Positions 28,466 through 34,996 of a stretch of DNA of 64,000 nucleotides are shown here, in pieces. Origin of the DNA: Escherichia coli (lineage in GTDB: Bacteria; Pseudomonadota; Gammaproteobacteria; Enterobacterales; Enterobacteriaceae); assembly GCF_013315695.1 (NCBI RefSeq), contig NZ_CP054353.1; one strand, written 5' to 3'. Made by a program: the position numbers and the translations under genes. The notes under the pieces were generated by a model. It worked only from the letters and a program-made list of their open reading frames with translations. It ran no database searches and was not told the origin of the DNA. The number at the start of each line of letters is the position of its first letter. Positions within the stretch are counted from its first letter, which is position 1.

Positions 28466-31246
28466 ATGGCAAACTTTTTTATTCGACGACCGATATTTGC
28501 ATGGGTGCTGGCCATTATTCTGATGATGGCGGGCGCACTGGCGATCCTACAATTGCCCGTCGCTCAGTATCCAACCATTGCACCGCCTGCGGTTTCTGTT
28601 TCAGCAAACTATCCGGGCGCTGATGCGCAGACTGTGCAGGATACGGTGACGCAGGTTATCGAACAGAATATGAACGGTATCGATAACCTGATGTATATGT
28701 CCTCCACCAGCGATTCCGCCGGTAGCGTGACAATTACCCTTACCTTCCAGTCCGGGACCGATCCTGATATCGCGCAAGTGCAGGTGCAGAACAAACACCA
28801 GCTCGCCACGCCGTTGCTGCCGCAGGAGGTTCAGCAGCAGGGGATCAGTGTTGAAAAGTCCAGTAGCAGCTATTTGATGGTGGCGGGCTTTGTCTCTGAT
28901 AACCCAGGCACCACACAGGACGATATCTCGGACTATGTGGCCTCTAACGTTAAAGATACGCTTAGCCGTCTGAATGGCGTCGGTGACGTACAGCTTTTCG
29001 GCGCACAGTATGCGATGCGTATCTGGCTGGACGCCGATCTGCTAAACAAATATAAACTGACACCGGTTGATGTGATTAACCAGTTGAAGGTACAGAACGA
29101 TCAGATCGCTGCCGGACAGTTGGGCGGAACGCCAGCGTTACCAGGGCAACAGTTGAACGCCTCGATTATTGCTCAGACGCGGTTAAAAAATCCGGAAGAA
29201 TTCGGCAAAGTGACCTTGCGCGTAAACAGTGACGGCTCGGTGGTACGCCTGAAAGATGTCGCACGGGTTGAACTTGGCGGTGAAAACTATAACGTTATCG
29301 CTCGCATCAACGATAAACCGGCGGCGGGCCTGGGTATTAAGCTGGCAACCGGCGCGAATGCTCTCGATACCGCGAAAGCCATTAAGGCAAAACTGGCGGA
29401 ATTACAGCCATTCTTCCCGCAGGGAATGAAGGTTCTCTACCCTTATGACACCACACCATTCGTCCAGCTTTCTATTCACGAAGTGGTAAAAACGCTGTTC
29501 GAAGCCATTATGCTGGTGTTCCTGGTGATGTATCTGTTCTTGCAGAATATGCGAGCAACGCTGATCCCCACCATTGCGGTACCCGTGGTGTTGTTAGGGA
29601 CGTTTGCCATCCTCGCCGCTTTTGGTTACTCCATCAACACACTAACGATGTTCGGGATGGTGCTTGCCATCGGGCTGCTCGTCGATGATGCGATAGTGGT
29701 GGTGGAGAACGTCGAGCGCGTGATGATGGAGGATAAGCTCCCGCCAAAAGAAGCGACGGAAAAATCGATGTCGCAAATTCAGGGCGCACTGGTGGGTATC
29801 GCGATGGTGCTGTCAGCGGTATTTATTCCAATGGCATTCTTCGGCGGTTCTACTGGGGCAATTTACCGCCAGTTCTCTATCACCATCGTTTCGGCAATGG
29901 CGCTTTCTGTTCTGGTGGCATTGATTCTTACCCCAGCGTTATGTGCAACACTGCTCAAACCCGTCTCTGCTGAGCATCACGAAAATAAGGGCGGTTTCTT
30001 CGGCTGGTTTAATACCACCTTCGATCATAGCGTTAACCACTACACCAACAGCGTCGGCAAAATCCTCGGTTCCACAGGACGATATTTACTGATCTATGCA
30101 CTAATTGTTGCTGGAATGGTGGTGTTGTTTTTACGTCTTCCGTCTTCCTTCTTACCTGAAGAGGATCAGGGAGTCTTTCTGACTATGATTCAGTTACCCG
30201 CTGGCGCGACGCAAGAGCGGACGCAAAAAGTGTTGGATCAAGTGACGGATTACTATCTGAAGAACGAGAAAGCGAACGTAGAAAGTGTCTTTACGGTTAA
30301 CGGCTTTAGCTTCAGCGGCCAGGCACAAAACGCCGGTATGGCCTTCGTCAGTCTGAAACCGTGGGAAGAGCGTAGTGGTGACGAAAACAGTGCGGAAGCG
30401 GTAATCCATCGTGCCAAAATGGAATTGGGCAAGATCCGCGACGGTTTTGTCATTCCATTCAATATGCCAGCCATTGTTGAACTGGGCACGGCAACGGGTT
30501 TCGACTTTGAGTTAATTGATCAGGCTGGGCTGGGTCACGATGCCCTGACCCAGGCCCGTAACCAGTTGCTTGGCATGGCGGCGCAACATCCTGCCAGCTT
30601 AGTCAGCGTGCGTCCTAATGGTCTGGAAGACACCGCGCAGTTTAAACTGGAAGTTGACCAGGAAAAGGCGCAGGCATTAGGTGTTTCACTTTCTGACATC
30701 AATCAGACCATTTCAACGGCGTTGGGTGGGACTTACGTTAACGACTTCATTGACCGTGGTCGCGTGAAAAAGGTGTATGTTCAGGCGGATGCCAAATTCC
30801 GTATGCTGCCAGAAGATGTCGATAAACTTTATGTCCGCAGCGCCAACGGCGAAATGGTGCCATTCTCTGCCTTTACCACTGCACATTGGGTGTATGGCTC
30901 TCCGCGACTGGAGCGCTACAACGGTCTGCCGTCAATGGAGATTCAGGGGGAAGCCGCGCCAGGAACCAGTTCCGGCGATGCCATGGCGTTGATGGAAAAC
31001 ATTGCGTCAAAATTACCGGCGGGCATTGGTTATGACTGGACGGGTATGTCATATCAGGAACGTTTATCGGGAAACCAGGCTCCCGCTCTGGTAGCAATTT
31101 CCTTTGAGGTTGTTTTCCTGTGCCTTGCTGCACTCTATGAAAGCTGGTCAATTCCTGTCTCGGTTATGTTGGTCGTGCCGTTAGGGATTGTCGGCGTGCT
31201 ACTGGCGGCAACACTCTTTAATCAAAAAAATGACGTCTACTTTATG
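28466..31246 (+). pseudogene. acrF: acrF (RND inner-membrane transporter) truncated at its 3' end by IS1
   Basis: Translation matches AcrF from [23 protein letters not shown]... through ...[11 protein letters not shown] (about 927 codons); the frame then runs into the IS1 inverted repeat and stops after 9 IS1-encoded codons (GDAANLLI*). Full-length AcrF is about 1034 aa, so roughly the last 107 codons are absent. Confidence 0.85.
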
Positions 31247-31301
31247 GGTGATGCTGCCAACTTACTGATTTAGTGTATGATGGTGTTTTTGAGGTGCTCC
31301 A

Positions 31302-31577
31302 GTGGCTTCTGTTTCTATCAGCTGTCCCTCCTGTTCAGCTACTGACGGGGTGGTGCGTAACGGCAAAAGCACCGCCGGACATCAGCGCTATCTCTGCTCT
31401 CACTGCCGTAAAACATGGCAACTGCAGTTCACTTACACCGCTTCTCAACCCGGTACGCACCAGAAAATCATTGATATGGCCATGAATGGCGTTGGATGCC
31501 GGGCAACAGCCCGCATTATGGGCGTTGGCCTCAACACGATTTTACGTCACTTAAAAAACTCAGGCCGCAGTCGGTAA
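31302..31577 (+). CDS. insA: IS1 InsA (transposition inhibitor / N-terminal part of the transposase)
   Basis: 91-aa translation [43 protein letters not shown]...; an A6C slippery run (aaaaaac, 31553..31559) lies near its 3' end. Confidence 0.9.
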
Positions 31578-31999
31578 CCTCGCGCATACAGCCGGGCAGT
31601 GACGTCATCGTCTGCGCGGAAATGGACGAACAGTGGGGCTATGTCGGGGCTAAATCGCGCCAGCGCTGGCTGTTTTACGCGTATGACAGGCTCCGGAAGA
31701 CGGTTGTTGCGCACGTATTCGGTGAACGCACTATGGCGACGCTGGGGCGTCTTATGAGCCTGCTGTCACCCTTTGACGTGGTGATATGGATGACGGATGG
31801 CTGGCCGCTGTATGAATCCCGCCTGAAGGGAAAGCTGCACGTAATCAGCAAGCGATATACGCAGCGAATTGAGCGGCATAACCTGAATCTGAGGCAGCAC
31901 CTGGCACGGCTGGGACGGAAGTCGCTGTCGTTCTCAAAATCGGTGGAGCTGCATGACAAAGTCATCGGGCATTATCTGAACATAAAACACTATCAATAA
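31496..31999 (+). CDS. insB: IS1 InsB frame (transposase InsAB' is made by -1 frameshifting from insA)
   Basis: 167-aa translation [64 protein letters not shown]..., matching remembered InsB. Confidence 0.88.
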
Positions 32000-32069
32000 G
32001 TTGGAGTCATTACCCGTTAATAAGAGAGTTAACTTATTAAGCGTTAGCGTTTATTACTGAGGTAACACC

Positions 32070-32291
32070 ATGAAAAGATTAATTCCTGTGGCATTGCTCA
32101 CCGCATTGCTGGCGGGCTGTGCTCACGATTCGCCCTGCGTTCCGGTTTATGATGATCAGGGGCGACTGGTTCACACCAATACCTGTATGAAAGGCACGAC
32201 TCAGGATAACTGGGAAACGGCTGGGGCTATTGCTGGCGGGGCAGCAGCTGTTGCTGGCCTGACGATGGGGATCATCGCTCTGTCGAAATAA
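32070..32291 (+). CDS. yhdV: Small lipoprotein YhdV
   Basis: 73-aa translation MKRLIPVALLTALLAGCAHDS... (lipobox LAGC) with a Gly/Ala-rich C-terminal hydrophobic segment. Confidence 0.85.
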   Translation: MKRLIPVALLTALLAGCAHDSPCVPVYDDQGRLVHTNTCMKGTTQDNWETAGAIAGGAAAVAGLTMGIIALSK

Positions 32292-32295
32292 CTGA

Positions 32296-32320
32296 ACAGA
32301 GCGCGGAGTACCGCGCTCTG
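32296..32320 (+). terminator. Candidate terminator hairpin after yhdV
   Basis: cagagcgcgg agta ccgcgctctg inverted repeat just after the yhdV stop; the following T-tract is weak (tttaa). Confidence 0.4.
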
Positions 32321-32721
32321 TTTAACGATACAGTATCTCACCATAAGATAAAATATTGCTATATTCTGCTGGCTAATTCCCTGCTGATTTAGCATGTTAT
32401 ATCGCGTTATTTCGCTGCTTTCGAAATAACGCATCAATTTAATTTTCACACTTCCCACCAGAATTATACTCACGCTAACAATCATTATTCTGCTTAGTAA
32501 AAAACGCGTAAATATTTTGCGCCAAAATGTGGCGCATGTTTCATTTTCGCACCATTGCGGGGCGCTGTTTTTATTATTTCCTGTCTACACTCAGCTTATT
32601 GCGACGCGAAATCGTGCGCAAAAACTGGCACTACTTTTGCTTATAAGAGGATGGCCACAGACAGGTAAAAGACGTTTCCCAAATGTCCTATAACGATAAT
32701 TTTCGCCTCACAGGAAGCATT

Positions 32722-33747
32722 ATGAAAAAGATGATGATAGCCACACTGGCTGCCGCCAGCGTGCTGCTTGCCGTTGCAAATCAGGCGCATGCTGGCGCGA
32801 CGCTTGATGCCGTACAGAAAAAAGGTTTTGTGCAATGCGGGATCAGTGATGGATTACCTGGGTTCTCTTATGCCGATGCTGACGGTAAATTTTCAGGTAT
32901 TGATGTTGATATTTGTCGTGGTGTTGCCGCTGCTGTATTTGGTGACGACACGAAAGTGAAATATACCCCGCTCACTGCAAAAGAACGCTTCACCGCTTTA
33001 CAGTCAGGGGAGGTGGATTTGCTCTCCCGTAATACGACCTGGACTTCATCTCGCGATGCCGGGATGGGAATGGCATTTACCGGCGTCACTTATTACGACG
33101 GCATTGGCTTCCTGACTCACGATAAAGCGGGACTAAAAAGCGCGAAAGAACTGGATGGCGCAACCGTCTGTATTCAGGCGGGTACTGATACCGAACTCAA
33201 CGTTGCCGATTACTTCAAGGCAAACAATATGAAGTACACACCAGTGACTTTCGATCGCTCTGACGAATCAGCGAAGGCACTGGAATCTGGTCGCTGCGAT
33301 ACGCTGGCCTCGGATCAATCACAACTGTATGCCCTGCGCATCAAATTAAGCAACCCAACTGAATGGATTGTCTTACCGGAAGTTATCTCTAAAGAACCAC
33401 TTGGGCCGGTAGTTCGTCGTGGCGATGATGAATGGTTCTCGATTGTACGCTGGACGCTTTTCGCCATGCTGAATGCTGAAGAGATGGGCATCAATTCCCA
33501 GAACGTCGATGAAAAAGCGGCTAATCCAGCAACGCCCGATATGGCCCATCTGCTGGGTAAAGAGGGCGATTACGGCAAGGATCTGAAGCTGGATAATAAA
33601 TGGGCTTACAACATCATCAAACAGGTGGGTAACTACTCGGAAATTTTTGAGCGTAACGTAGGTTCAGAAAGCCCGCTGAAAATTAAACGTGGGCAAAATA
33701 ATCTCTGGAATAACGGCGGTATTCAGTACGCGCCGCCCGTGCGTTAA
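32722..33747 (+). CDS. yhdW: Periplasmic amino-acid-binding protein of an ABC transporter (intact here)
   Basis: Translation MKKMMIATLAAASVLLAVANQAHAGATLDAVQKKGFVQCG... (signal peptide plus solute-binding fold); first gene of the yhdWXYZ cluster. Confidence 0.9.
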   Translation: MKKMMIATLAAASVLLAVANQAHAGATLDAVQKKGFVQCGISDGLPGFSYADADGKFSGIDVDICRGVAAAVFGDDTKVKYTPLTAKERFTALQSGEVDLLSRNTTWTSSRDAGMGMAFTGVTYYDGIGFLTHDKAGLKSAKELDGATVCIQAGTDTELNVADYFKANNMKYTPVTFDRSDESAKALESGRCDTLASDQSQLYALRIKLSNPTEWIVLPEVISKEPLGPVVRRGDDEWFSIVRWTLFAMLNAEEMGINSQNVDEKAANPATPDMAHLLGKEGDYGKDLKLDNKWAYNIIKQVGNYSEIFERNVGSESPLKIKRGQNNLWNNGGIQYAPPVR

Positions 33748-33814
33748 GTCGGTGTGAGGTAACGAGCGTCGCTACGGCGGCGCTCTCTTCAGCGTTATGC
33801 TTTCCGAGGTTTCT

Positions 33815-34996
33815 ATGTCTCATCGCCGCTCAACCGTTAAAGGCTCACTCTCCTTTGCCAACCCTACGGTTCGCGCCTGGTTATTCCAGATCCTTGCCGT
33901 TGTTGCTGTTGTCGGCATTGTTGGTTGGCTATTTCACAACACTGTGACGAATCTCAGTAATCGTGGCATTACTTCAGGTTTTGCCTTTCTGGATCGCGGC
34001 GCTGGCTTCGGTATTGTCCAGCATTTGATCGATTACCAGCAGGGTGATACCTACGGACGCGTTTTCATTGTTGGCTTACTCAATACGCTACTGGTTTCTG
34101 CATTGTGTATTGTATTCGCTTCTGTTCTGGGCTTCTTTATCGGTCTGGCGCGACTTTCGGATAACTGGCTGCTACGAAAGCTTTCCACAATTTATATTGA
34201 GATCTTCCGTAATATTCCGCCGCTGCTGCAAATCTTCTTCTGGTACTTTGCCGTGCTGCGCAATTTGCCCGGACCACGCCAGGCAGTGAGTGCGTTTGAT
34301 CTGGCCTTTTTGAGCAATCGTGGGCTTTATATTCCGTCGCCGCAGCTGGGAGACGGATTTATTGCGTTTATCCTGGCTGTTGTTATGGCTATAGTCCTTT
34401 CTGTTGGGCTATTCCTCTTTAATAAAACATACCAGATAAAAACCGGACAACTGCGCCGCACCTGGCCGATCGCCGCAGTGTTGATCATAGGTTTGCCTTT
34501 ACTGGCGCAATGGCTTTTTGGCGCAGCACTACACTGGGATGTCCCAGCCTTACGAGGCTTTAACTTCCGTGGCGGGATGGTTTTAATTCCTGAACTGGCA
34601 GCCTTAACGCTGGCACTTTCGGTTTATACCTCTGCATTTATCGCCGAGATTATCCGCGCTGGGATCCAGGCAGTGCCTTATGGTCAACATGAAGCGGCTC
34701 GGTCACTGGGATTACCCAATCCGGTTACGCTACGCCAGGTCATTATTCCCCAGGCACTGCGAGTGATCATTCCGCCGTTAACCAGCCAGTATCTCAACAT
34801 CGTCAAAAACTCCTCTCTTGCCGCCGCTATTGGCTATCCGGATATGGTTTCGCTGTTTGCTGGCACCGTGCTGAACCAGACGGGGCAAGCCATCGAGACG
34901 ATAGCCATGACCATGTCGGTCTATCTGATTATCAGCCTGACTATCTCGCTGCTGATGAATATCTATAACCGCCGCATCGCGATCGTTGAACGCTAA
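33815..34996 (+). CDS. yhdX: ABC amino-acid transporter permease
   Basis: Translation MSHRRSTVKGSLSFANPTVRAWLFQILAVVAVVGIVGW..., polytopic membrane protein. Confidence 0.9.
   Translation: MSHRRSTVKGSLSFANPTVRAWLFQILAVVAVVGIVGWLFHNTVTNLSNRGITSGFAFLDRGAGFGIVQHLIDYQQGDTYGRVFIVGLLNTLLVSALCIVFASVLGFFIGLARLSDNWLLRKLSTIYIEIFRNIPPLLQIFFWYFAVLRNLPGPRQAVSAFDLAFLSNRGLYIPSPQLGDGFIAFILAVVMAIVLSVGLFLFNKTYQIKTGQLRRTWPIAAVLIIGLPLLAQWLFGAALHWDVPALRGFNFRGGMVLIPELAALTLALSVYTSAFIAEIIRAGIQAVPYGQHEAARSLGLPNPVTLRQVIIPQALRVIIPPLTSQYLNIVKNSSLAAAIGYPDMVSLFAGTVLNQTGQAIETIAMTMSVYLIISLTISLLMNIYNRRIAIVER

What the first reader, a model, noticed from the sequence alone, without database searches (positions are those of the whole stretch)
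32404..32432. Perfect 11-bp inverted repeat in the yhdV-yhdW intergenic region, upstream of an intact yhdW
gcgttatttcg ctgcttt cgaaataacgc forms a perfect 11-bp palindromic pair with a 7-nt spacer, about 290 bp upstream of yhdW; a second shorter palindrome (gcgcca aaatg tggcgc) lies at about 32519..32536. These are candidate regulator-binding sites or RNA structures controlling the yhdWXYZ amino-acid ABC transporter. yhdW is full-length with an intact signal peptide here, whereas my recollection (not certain) is that the K-12 copy is annotated as disrupted.
Basis: partly seen in the sequence, partly recalled or inferred. Interest (0 to 1): 0.3.

Follow-up and report, generated by a model that had tools for sequence, protein, structure and literature searches.

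The report
E. coli-specific palindrome upstream of yhdW
A perfect 11-bp inverted repeat really sits 290 bp upstream of the amino-acid transporter gene yhdW, but it is confined to Escherichia, lies outside the conserved and already known NtrC/sigma-54 control region, and is most likely a by-product of a local duplication rather than a key regulator site.

Summary
GCGTTATTTCG-N7-CGAAATAACGC lies at 32404-32432, 290 bp before the yhdW ATG (32722). It is single-copy and far beyond chance. yhdW is intact here (341 aa). K-12 has a 1-nt deletion at nt 68, which is already published.

The palindrome is not part of the conserved control region. In 80 Enterobacteriaceae loci, conservation starts about 40 bp downstream of it. 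The 11-bp repeat occurs only in E. coli: about three quarters of complete genomes carry it perfect, B2-type genomes lose the outer pair, and O157-type genomes have a T·G.

Other Escherichia lineages keep the right arm but pair it differently (9 bp with a 4-nt loop, or imperfect). E. coli carries 11 extra nt that read as a tandem copy of the left half-site.

It matches no NtrC, ZraR or NagC/Mlc site, no terminator, no Rfam family and no phage or plasmid sequence.

Most likely it is a lineage-specific repeat under weak or no constraint (0.4). An unidentified operator (0.3) or an RNA hairpin (0.2) remain possible. Interest is low.

The parts
32404..32414 (.). Left arm of the palindrome, GCGTTATTTCG
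   Evidence: E. coli-specific: 0 of 11 columns are invariant across four Escherichia lineages. It is polymorphic at 32404 (G>A, B2-type, 1042 genomes) and at 32405 (C>T, O157-type, 309 genomes).
32415..32421 (.). 7-nt spacer/loop, CTGCTTT
   Evidence: The loop is 4 nt (ACCT) in L003 and about 6 nt in L005.
32422..32432 (.). Right arm, CGAAATAACGC
   Evidence: 10 of 11 columns are invariant in four Escherichia lineages, against 53% invariance at yhdW four-fold sites (binomial p = 0.01).
32396..32405 (+). Degenerate tandem copy of the left half-site, GTTATATCGC, directly followed by GTTATTTCGC at 32406-32415
   Evidence: Read from the sequence. It is homologous to the only left arm present in L003/L004 (GCATTTTATTTCG). 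E. coli and L005 are 11 nt longer here. The repeat is below the seed length of the repeat finder.
32295..32322 (+). yhdV terminator hairpin (12-bp G+C-rich stem, 4-nt loop)
   Evidence: An equivalent G+C-rich inverted repeat follows yhdV in most of the 80 loci.
32465..32497 (.). First block conserved across genera (ATACTCACGCTAACAATCATTATTCTG; majority ATATTCACGCC.GAAATCATT); function unknown
   Evidence: alignment of 81 upstream regions. The palindrome ends 33 bp upstream of it.
32518..32536 (.). Second palindrome, TGCGCCA-AAATG-TGGCGCA; NtrC-box-like site A
   Evidence: Each half matches the NtrC box halves TGCACCA/TGGTGCA at 6 of 7 positions, but the spacer is 5 nt instead of 3 (consensus from PMC8743547). 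TTTTGC and TGTGGC are conserved across genera. The perfect 7+5+7 symmetry occurs in only 3 of 81 sequences.
32548..32564 (.). NtrC-box-like site B, CGCACCATTGCGGGGCG
   Evidence: 9 of 12 matches to TGCACC-N5-GGTGCA at canonical spacing. The left half is TGCACCA in most genera.
32626..32642 (+). Sigma-54 promoter, CTGGCACTACTTTTGCT
   Evidence: Identical to sigma-54 ChIP-seq site OS34, 70 bp upstream of yhdW (PMC4591121). TGGCA-N7-TTGCT is kept in nearly all 80 loci.
32722..33747 (+). yhdW, intact (341 aa, periplasmic amino-acid-binding protein with signal peptide)
   Evidence: K-12 lacks the A at nt 68.
32070..32291 (+). yhdV (73-aa lipoprotein), the upstream gene

Best explanation
The 29-bp element is a genuine, E. 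coli-wide inverted repeat, but it is young and specific to one lineage.

Shown: it lies about 235 bp upstream of the sigma-54 transcription start. This is in the fast-evolving distal half of the yhdV-yhdW spacer, outside the module conserved across Enterobacteriaceae (two NtrC-like sites, sigma-54 promoter, 5' UTR) that accounts for the published nitrogen control of yhdWXYZ.

Inferred: the Escherichia ancestor had a shorter repeat of about 8-9 bp (TTATnTCG ... CGAAATAA), still seen as TTATTTCGA-ACCT-TCGAAATAA in another Escherichia species. In the E. coli lineage, an insertion of about 10-11 nt that reads as a tandem copy of the left half-site (GTTATATCGC|GTTATTTCGC) placed a fresh copy next to the unchanged right arm. 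The self-complementary GC at the junction lengthened the match to a perfect 11 bp.

On this reading the perfection comes from slippage or duplication at a hairpin-prone, A+T-rich site. The element is under weak or no selection and is not a necessary part of yhdWXYZ regulation.
For: 1. It is absent outside Escherichia. No match with up to 8 substitutions was found in 77 non-Escherichia loci. The only perfect repeats of 8 bp or more there are, with a few scattered unrelated exceptions, the G+C-rich yhdV terminators.
2. Cross-genus conservation starts at about 32465, downstream of the element.
3. Across four Escherichia lineages the surrounding distal spacer evolves at or above the neutral rate: 58% and 33% invariant columns, against 53% at yhdW four-fold sites. 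The proximal 251 bp are 92% invariant. E. coli is 79-81% identical to other Escherichia lineages in the distal spacer.
4. The repeat is imperfect in two of four lineages: 8 of 9 pairs in L004 and 8 of 10 in L005, whose fold is not better than shuffles (z = -1.3).
5. The distance between half-sites differs between lineages (4, 6 and 7 nt). E. coli and L005 carry 11 extra nt that look like a repeat of the left half-site (sequence).
6. Within E. coli the two outer pairs are already decaying in major groups: 1042 B2-type and 309 O157-type genomes out of about 5250.
7. It matches no known motif or family: NtrC, ZraR, NagC/Mlc, terminator scan, Rfam, phages, plasmids.
8. It is single-copy in the window and in each genome.
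Against: The right arm is more conserved than neutral sites: 10 of 11 columns invariant, p = 0.01. The right arm together with the ancestral left half-site region gives 24 of 28 invariant, p = 3e-4, though that window was chosen post hoc.

A perfect 9-bp repeat survives at the same place in L003 in a different configuration. This is hard to get by chance and suggests that pairing, or the half-site sequence, is being kept.

The inner 9 bp and the loop showed no polymorphism in the 11 E. coli sequences aligned.

The 17-nt distance between the ancestral left half-site and the right arm is the same in E. coli and L005, although the intervening sequence differs. This could reflect a spacing constraint.

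Only four Escherichia lineages were available.
Confidence: 0.4

Rival explanations
1. The repeat is an operator for an unidentified symmetric (dimeric or tetrameric) DNA-binding protein. The half-sites TTATnTCG / CGAAATAA would be read as DNA. This would add an Escherichia-specific input to yhdWXYZ, either as a far-upstream site looping to the sigma-54 promoter or as a site just upstream of a weak sigma-70-like promoter (TTTTCA-16-TATACT, 32443-32470).
For: Both half-site sequences, not only their pairing, are kept across four Escherichia lineages. After the 11-nt insertion the ancestral left half-site is still 7 of 8 intact. It sits exactly one helical turn further away, at the same 17-nt distance in E. 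coli and L005. The element is perfectly symmetric and single-copy, like a local operator. A sigma-70-like promoter match lies 10 bp downstream, and its -10 region falls in the first cross-genus conserved block. Lrp, NtrC and reportedly ZraR all act at this promoter, so multi-factor control is plausible.
Against: Spacing between the proximal half-sites varies (4, 6 and 7 nt) between lineages, which most dimeric operators do not tolerate. No regulator gene is adjacent. There is no match to NtrC, ZraR, NagC/Mlc, CRP, ArgR or Lrp-like consensus. No publication found reports a factor bound here, and the gSELEX and ChIP peaks in this spacer map to the sigma-54/NtrC part. It is absent from other genera that have the same operon and promoter.
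Confidence: 0.3
2. The repeat acts as an RNA hairpin. It would form in read-through transcripts from the strongly inducible yhdV, or in an unannotated short transcript, and would serve as a 3'-end barrier or stabiliser or as a weak secondary terminator insulating yhdV from yhdW.
For: The hairpin is stable for its composition: -13.9 kcal/mol, z = -4.1. Stems are kept while loop length and sequence change between lineages (ACCT, about 6 nt, CTGCTTT), which is the hairpin pattern. The O157-type C32405T change keeps a G·U pair only in + strand RNA. The yhdV terminator in this window is followed by only three U, so read-through is plausible. yhdV is induced about 70-fold by acid (PMC10746267). A U-rich tail (AUCAAUUUAAUUUU) follows the stem. 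An extended -10-like TGCTATATT at 32357-32365 could start a short + strand transcript (sequence).
Against: There is no evidence that the region is transcribed. It failed the terminator scan: there is no U-tract within 2 nt of the stem and the stem is A+U-rich. There is no Rfam hit at E <= 1. No compensatory double change was observed. The hairpin is weak or absent in L004 (-3.7 kcal/mol) and L005 (z = -1.3). It is absent in other genera.
Confidence: 0.2
3. The repeat is a binding site of a regulator already linked to this operon: NtrC (GlnG), ZraR or Lrp, or the ROK repressors NagC/Mlc, whose operators have similar A+T-rich arms.
For: NtrC ChIP-seq and gSELEX peaks and sigma-54 binding map to this spacer. 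Lrp ChIP signal is reported at yhdW. The operon is reported as ZraSR-regulated. The arms TTATTT/AAATAA look like NagC/Mlc-type arms.
Against: The NtrC box TGCACCAnnnTGGTGCA has no resemblance to the repeat, and the NtrC-like sites are at 32518-32564. The ZraR sites in zraP-zraS (GAGTAAAAATGACTCGC repeats) have no counterpart in the spacer. NagC/Mlc require TT-N9-AA (PMC4288165; verified on the nagE-nagB operators), whereas here the gap is N11 (N10 in L003, N8 in L005). ZraR gSELEX and ChIP-exo studies did not report yhdW.
Confidence: 0.05

Closest known systems
NtrC (GlnG) enhancer sites plus the sigma-54 promoter of yhdWXYZ (nitrogen-scavenging regulon)
   Same: It is the same spacer. The sigma-54 promoter is identical to the ChIP-seq site.
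   Different: The 11-bp palindrome has no sequence similarity to the NtrC box. It lies about 235 bp upstream of the start and is not conserved with the promoter in other genera. Site A has a 5-nt spacer rather than 3 nt.
Intrinsic (Rho-independent) terminator or 3' stabilising hairpins
   Same: It is a stable stem-loop downstream of a gene, followed by a U-rich stretch.
   Different: The stem is A+U-rich and there is no U-tract directly after it. It was not called by the terminator scan. The real yhdV terminator is 80 bp upstream and is conserved across genera.
NagC/Mlc (ROK family) operators
   Same: Both are quasi-palindromes with A+T-rich arms of the TTATTT/AAATAA kind and C/G flanks.
   Different: The defining TT/AA at positions +/-5,6 (TT-N9-AA) is not met. 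The gap here is N11, and it differs again in other Escherichia lineages.
ZraR (HydG) binding sites in the zraP-zraSR spacer
   Same: ZraR is an enhancer-binding protein reported to regulate yhdWXYZ, and its own sites are long inverted repeats far upstream of sigma-54 promoters.
   Different: There is no sequence similarity, and no GAGT-N7-ACTC-type site in the yhdV-yhdW spacer. Independent gSELEX and ChIP-exo studies did not find yhdW.
Hairpin-prone quasi-palindromes reshaped by slippage, tandem duplication or template switching (own knowledge of the replication-error literature; not tested here)
   Same: One arm is conserved and the other is rebuilt. There is an 11-nt length difference, a tandem half-site copy, and perfect symmetry in one lineage only.
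   Different: The mutational event itself cannot be reconstructed with four lineages. The above-neutral conservation of the right arm is not explained by mutation alone.

Membership tests
NtrC-box enhancer site | 17-bp TGCACCAnnnTGGTGCA-like sequence (PMC8743547) | tested here: not met
   A consensus scan of the spacer puts the only matches at 32518-32536 and 32548-32566. Nothing matches at 32404-32432 (consensus).
NtrC-box enhancer site | Position about 100-150 bp upstream of a sigma-54 promoter, conserved together with it | tested here: not met
   The palindrome centre is about 235 bp upstream of the start inferred from the -24/-12 element at 32626-32642. The palindrome is absent in 77 non-Escherichia loci that keep the promoter.
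NtrC-box enhancer site (second palindrome, 32518-32536) | Half-sites TGCACCA/TGGTGCA separated by 3 nt | tested here: inconclusive
   Each half-site matches at 6 of 7 positions, but the spacer is 5 nt. The block is conserved across genera and lies about 125 bp upstream of the start. Perfect symmetry occurs in only 3 of 81 sequences. NtrC ChIP-seq and gSELEX peaks map to the spacer, but not at base resolution.
Intrinsic terminator | G+C-rich stem followed immediately by a U-tract | tested here: not met
   It was not reported by the terminator scan. Only 5 of 11 pairs are G-C, and the tail AUCAAUUU has 4 U in its first 8 nt.
NagC/Mlc operator | Invariant TT and AA at positions -6,-5 and +5,+6 (TT-N9-AA) in a 23-bp quasi-palindrome | tested here: not met
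   Here the arrangement is TT-N11-AA (N10 in L003, N8 in L005). The rule comes from PMC4288165 and was confirmed on the nagE-nagB operators.
ZraR binding site | Similarity to the inverted repeats GAGTAAAAATGACTCGC / GCGAGTCATTTTTACTC of the zraP-zraS spacer | tested here: not met
   define the repeats. One search finds only two 6-of-8 chance matches elsewhere in the spacer and none at the palindrome.
Any Rfam RNA family | Covariance-model match | tested here: not met
   cmscan of 31000-34000 on both strands, E <= 1: 0 matches.
Mobile-element end, attachment site or repeat family (REP-like) | Multiple copies per genome, or homology to phage or plasmid DNA | tested here: not met
   There is one place per genome (median 1) in 5250 genomes. 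There was no phage match. The only 'plasmid' hits are 4.8-4.9 Mb records that are chromosomes. There is no second copy in the window.
Transcription-factor operator (generic) | Specific protein binding and an effect on transcription | not testable with these tools
   This needs EMSA, footprinting, ChIP and reporter assays. No report was found in the literature searches. No supplementary files were held for the ChIP-seq compendium paper.

The most novel reading that the evidence does not exclude
The two complementary half-sites (TTATnTCG / CGAAATAA), kept above the neutral rate in Escherichia and re-paired after an 11-nt insertion, are a functional genus-specific cis element. It could be the operator of an unidentified regulator, or the hairpin of an unannotated transcript. 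Either way it would add a new input, for example envelope, antibiotic or acid stress, to the nitrogen-controlled yhdWXYZ transporter only in Escherichia.
Probability: 0.3. Interest if true: 0.4.

Novelty: new member of a known kind. Interest (0 to 1): 0.17.

Why it matters
As it stands, it matters little. The control of yhdWXYZ by NtrC and sigma-54 and the K-12 yhdW frameshift are already published, and the palindrome lies outside that conserved module.

If the element did bind a protein or shape an RNA, it would be a small example of lineage-specific rewiring of a conserved sigma-54 promoter. That would be relevant to recent claims that YhdWXYZ affects antibiotic homeostasis in E. coli and gut colonisation in Citrobacter rodentium.

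The useful practical outcome is a map of the spacer that separates its parts: the conserved NtrC-like sites, a conserved unexplained block, the sigma-54 promoter, the conserved 5' UTR, and the variable distal half where the palindrome sits.

Tried and rejected
1. NagC/Mlc operator. The arms look similar but the spacing is wrong: TT-N11-AA against the required TT-N9-AA.
2. ZraR site, prompted by the report that ZraSR regulates the operon. There is no similarity to the zraP-zraS repeats.
3. NtrC, CRP, ArgR, Nac, IHF and Lrp-like consensus scans. Nothing matched at the palindrome. There is an IHF-like CATCAATTTAATT abutting the right arm with one core mismatch, which I judged uninformative.
4. 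Rfam: no hit.
5. Terminator: not called.
6. Small ORFs. An 11-codon ORF (ATG at 32395 to TAA at 32428-32430, MLYRVISLLSK) has no Shine-Dalgarno sequence and its ATG is E. coli-specific. The 94-aa minus-strand ORF 32201-32485 is broken by 11- and 13-nt indels between lineages. Both were rejected.
7. Relic of an IS1 end. A shared 9-mer, CTGATTTAG, is within chance (my own estimate) and was rejected.
8. Phage attachment site or plasmid sequence: no match.
9. Full-text search for the half-site strings returned only primers.
10. A metagenome scan with ATTWAGCATTTTATBTCG, meant to find more Escherichia lineages, returned 120 chance matches and no Escherichia locus.
11. A search for cryptic-clade genomes inside the E. 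coli collection found none. All genomes are 79-81% identical to L003/L005 in the distal spacer.
12. The identity bands of 41-mer BLAST searches turned out to be ambiguous for a mismatch near the query end (K-12 type). Only the B2-type and O157-type counts are used.
13. No supplementary files were held for the ChIP-seq compendium paper.

Full report
**Observation.** The sequence is as described. GCGTTATTTCG (32404-32414) and CGAAATAACGC (32422-32432) are perfectly complementary across a 7-nt spacer, and the flanking bases do not extend the repeat. The right arm ends 290 bp before the yhdW ATG at 32722. Perfect 11-bp inverted repeats with short loops are rare. First-order Markov simulations of the window give 0.26, against 19 hits (about 10 distinct structures) observed, most of them terminator-like. 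This particular pattern, even with 3 mismatches allowed, occurs once, against none in 100 shuffles. It would fold at -13.9 kcal/mol as + strand RNA (z = -4.1), -14.7 as - strand RNA and -11.1 as DNA. The second palindrome, TGCGCCA-AAATG-TGGCGCA, is at 32518-32536.

**Context.** The layout, left to right, is:
- acrF, cut short at 935 aa by an IS1 (31247-32014)
- yhdV (32070-32291)
- a G+C-rich terminator hairpin (32295-32322)
- the palindrome
- a sigma-54 promoter, CTGGCACTACTTTTGCT (32626-32642)
- yhdW (32722-33747), followed by yhdX

The promoter sequence is identical to the sigma-54 ChIP-seq site OS34, mapped 70 bp upstream of yhdW in K-12 (PMC4591121). NtrC ChIP-seq (PMC4066584) and RpoN/NtrC gSELEX (PMC8743547) also place binding in this spacer. 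Lrp ChIP signal at yhdW is reported as well. The start inferred from the -24/-12 element puts the palindrome centre at about -235.

**yhdW.** The gene is intact here: 341 aa with a typical signal peptide ending AHA/G. In the K-12 derivative XL1-Blue it is annotated 'frameshifted', and the alignment shows one A missing at nt 68. This is exactly what a 2026 preprint describes (10.64898/2026.05.04.722672). The same preprint says the operon is regulated by ZraSR and is absent from E. albertii and Salmonella.

**Distribution within E. coli.**
- The spacer is core DNA: 5376 of 5426 complete genomes match at 95-100% identity.
- A 41-mer centred on the palindrome is found with at most one mismatch in 5250 genomes, at one place per genome.
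- Eleven aligned E. coli sequences show two polymorphisms inside the repeat, both in the outer pairs: G32404A in B2-type strains (1042 genomes with that exact 41-mer) and C32405T in O157-type strains (309 genomes).
- By subtraction, about three quarters of genomes carry the perfect 11-bp form.
- The inner 9 bp and the loop were invariant in this small sample. Flanking distal-spacer sites vary at roughly 0.1 per nt, so this is only suggestive.

**Outside E. coli.** I fetched 80 loci encoding YhdW from different species.
- The sigma-54 promoter (TGGCA-N7-TTGCT) is present in nearly all. The palindrome, allowing 8 substitutions, is present in none.
- The only perfect repeats of 8 bp or more in the other genera are, with a few scattered unrelated exceptions, the G+C-rich hairpins right after yhdV.
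- An alignment of 81 upstream regions shows that cross-genus conservation begins at about 32465, which is 33 bp downstream of the palindrome. It then covers a block at 32465-32497, the region 32515-32566, CCTGTCTACACTCAG (32579-32593), the promoter, and most of the 5' UTR.

**The second palindrome.** It lies in the conserved part of the spacer.
- Its halves match the NtrC box (TGCACCAnnnTGGTGCA, PMC8743547) at 6 of 7 positions each, but with a 5-nt spacer.
- A neighbouring site, CGCACCATTGCGGGGCG (32548-32564), matches 9 of 12 at canonical spacing, and its left half is TGCACCA in most genera.
- The perfect 7+5+7 symmetry is seen in only 3 of 81 sequences. What is conserved is the NtrC-like sequence, not the symmetry.
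- I read these two sites as the NtrC enhancer. This is an inference from motif, position, conservation and published binding; it is not shown at base resolution.

**Within the genus Escherichia.** Three other lineages were available: L003 and L005 (both labelled E. coli) and L004 (E. whittamii). They are each about 7% divergent from the window in yhdW, too far for E. coli proper and about equally distant from one another, except that L003 and L004 are about 4% apart. The proximal 251 bp of the spacer are 92% invariant among the four. The distal part is at or beyond the neutral level, with 58% and 33% invariant columns against 53% at yhdW four-fold sites. E. coli genomes are 79-81% identical to L003 and L005 in the distal spacer.

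Inside this variable stretch two islands stand out.
- The right arm, TCGAAATAAC, has 10 of 11 columns invariant (p = 0.01).
- The stretch TTTAGCATnTTATnTCG just 5' of the E. coli left arm has 14 of 17 invariant. Together the two islands give 24 of 28, p = 3e-4, although this window was chosen post hoc.

The pairing differs between lineages.
- In L003 the 5' island pairs directly with the right arm as TTATTTCGA-ACCT-TCGAAATAA, with perfect 9-bp arms and a 4-nt loop.
- L004 has the same arrangement with one mismatch.
- L005 has only an 8-of-10 match and no significant fold.
- E. coli and L005 are 11 nt longer between the island and the right arm. In E. coli the extra DNA reads as a tandem copy of the half-site, GTTATATCGC|GTTATTTCGC. 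The proximal copy, together with the GC at the junction, makes the perfect 11-bp arm.

So an older 8-9-bp repeat is ancestral in the genus, and the striking 11-bp form is a derived E. coli state.

**What it is not.**
- NagC/Mlc operators have similar arms but require TT-N9-AA (checked on the nagE-nagB operators). Here the gap is N11, and N10 or N8 in the other lineages.
- ZraR sites in the zraP-zraS spacer are GAGTAAAAATGACTCGC repeats, with no counterpart here. Two independent ZraR studies did not list yhdW.
- There is no NtrC, CRP, ArgR or Lrp-like match at the palindrome.
- It is not called as a terminator and has no Rfam match.
- There is no second copy in the window and no phage or true plasmid homology.
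- Small ORFs across it are not conserved.
- Literature searches on yhdV, yhdW and the half-site strings found no mention of the element.

**Interpretation.** Three readings remain.

1. *By-product (0.4).* An ancestral short repeat in a neutral, A+T-rich spacer was reshaped by a half-site duplication into a perfect palindrome and has little or no function.
   - For: restriction to one genus, the neutral surroundings, imperfection in two of four lineages, variable spacing, decay of the outer pairs in B2 and O157, and the lack of any motif match.
   - Against: the above-neutral conservation of the right arm and the survival of pairing in a different configuration in L003.
2. *Operator of an unidentified symmetric protein (0.3).*
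   - For: conservation of the half-site sequences, and the one-turn (11-nt) displacement of the ancestral half-site, which has the same 17-nt distance in E. coli and L005.
   - Against: the 4, 6 and 7-nt spacing of the proximal half-sites, no adjacent regulator gene, and no reported binding.
3. *RNA hairpin in yhdV read-through or in a short unannotated transcript (0.2).*
   - For: loop turnover with stem retention, the G·U-preserving O157 change, the weak U-tract of the yhdV terminator in this window, and strong acid induction of yhdV.
   - Against: no evidence of transcription, no terminator features, and weak folds in L004 and L005.

A site for NtrC, ZraR, Lrp or NagC/Mlc is unlikely (0.05).

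**Verdict.** The feature is real and non-random, but ordinary. It is an uncharacterised, lineage-specific inverted repeat outside the conserved and already described NtrC/sigma-54 control region of yhdWXYZ. The intact-versus-K-12 status of yhdW is confirmed and already published. Interest is low. The experiments listed under next steps would settle function quickly.

Noticed in passing
window 31247-32014 (IS1) and its junctions at 31246 and 32015: A 768-bp IS1 replaces 521 bp that are present in K-12: the last 324 nt of acrF plus 197 bp of the acrF-yhdV spacer. acrF therefore ends at 935 aa, and only 55 bp of native DNA remain upstream of yhdV. The genome with the identical yhdV-yhdW spacer (L001) lacks this IS1 but has a frameshifted acrF.
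   Followed up: partly
L091 788-1485 (E. coli JE86-ST02), corresponding to about window 32390-32399: Another strain carries an IS1B inserted in the yhdV-yhdW spacer about 10 bp upstream of the palindrome. This separates yhdV and its terminator from the palindrome and the yhdW promoter.
   Followed up: no
window 32579-32593: CCTGTCTACACTCAG, between the NtrC-like sites and the sigma-54 promoter, is almost invariant in about 80 Enterobacteriaceae. It matches none of the consensus motifs tried, and its role (DNA-bending protein site?) is unexplained.
   Followed up: no
window 32655-32721: The yhdW 5' UTR is very strongly conserved across genera (GCCACAGACAGGTAAAAG ... TATAACGATAATTTTCGCCTCACAGGAAGCATTATG). 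It is more conserved than the coding sequence, which suggests post-transcriptional control such as a small-RNA target. Not tested.
   Followed up: no
window 32465-32497: This is the most distal block conserved across genera (ATACTCACGC...AATCATTATTC; majority ATATTCACGCC.GAAATCATT). It overlaps the -10 hexamer of a sigma-70-like promoter match (TTTTCA-16-TATACT, 32443-32470). Its function is unknown.
   Followed up: partly
window 32357-32365: TGCTATATT resembles an extended -10 promoter element on the + strand. It would start a transcript near 32372 that runs into the palindrome. The TG is E. coli-specific. Untested.
   Followed up: no
window 32283-32292 and 32421-32430: The 10-mer TCGAAATAAC occurs both at the yhdV stop codon and in the right arm, so the left arm could also pair with the end of yhdV. 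The yhdV copy is not conserved in L003 (TCAAAATAAC), so this is probably chance.
   Followed up: partly
window 32295-32322 compared with L002 (K-12): The yhdV terminator in this window is followed by only TTT, whereas K-12 has TTTTT. The stem also differs at several positions between E. coli groups, so terminator strength may vary between strains.
   Followed up: no
window 32620 and 32680: Two single-base differences appear in this window and in the identical-spacer genome L001, but in none of the other nine E. coli spacers aligned. One is an A instead of G six bases upstream of the sigma-54 -24 element, and the other is a T instead of C in the 5' UTR.
   Followed up: no
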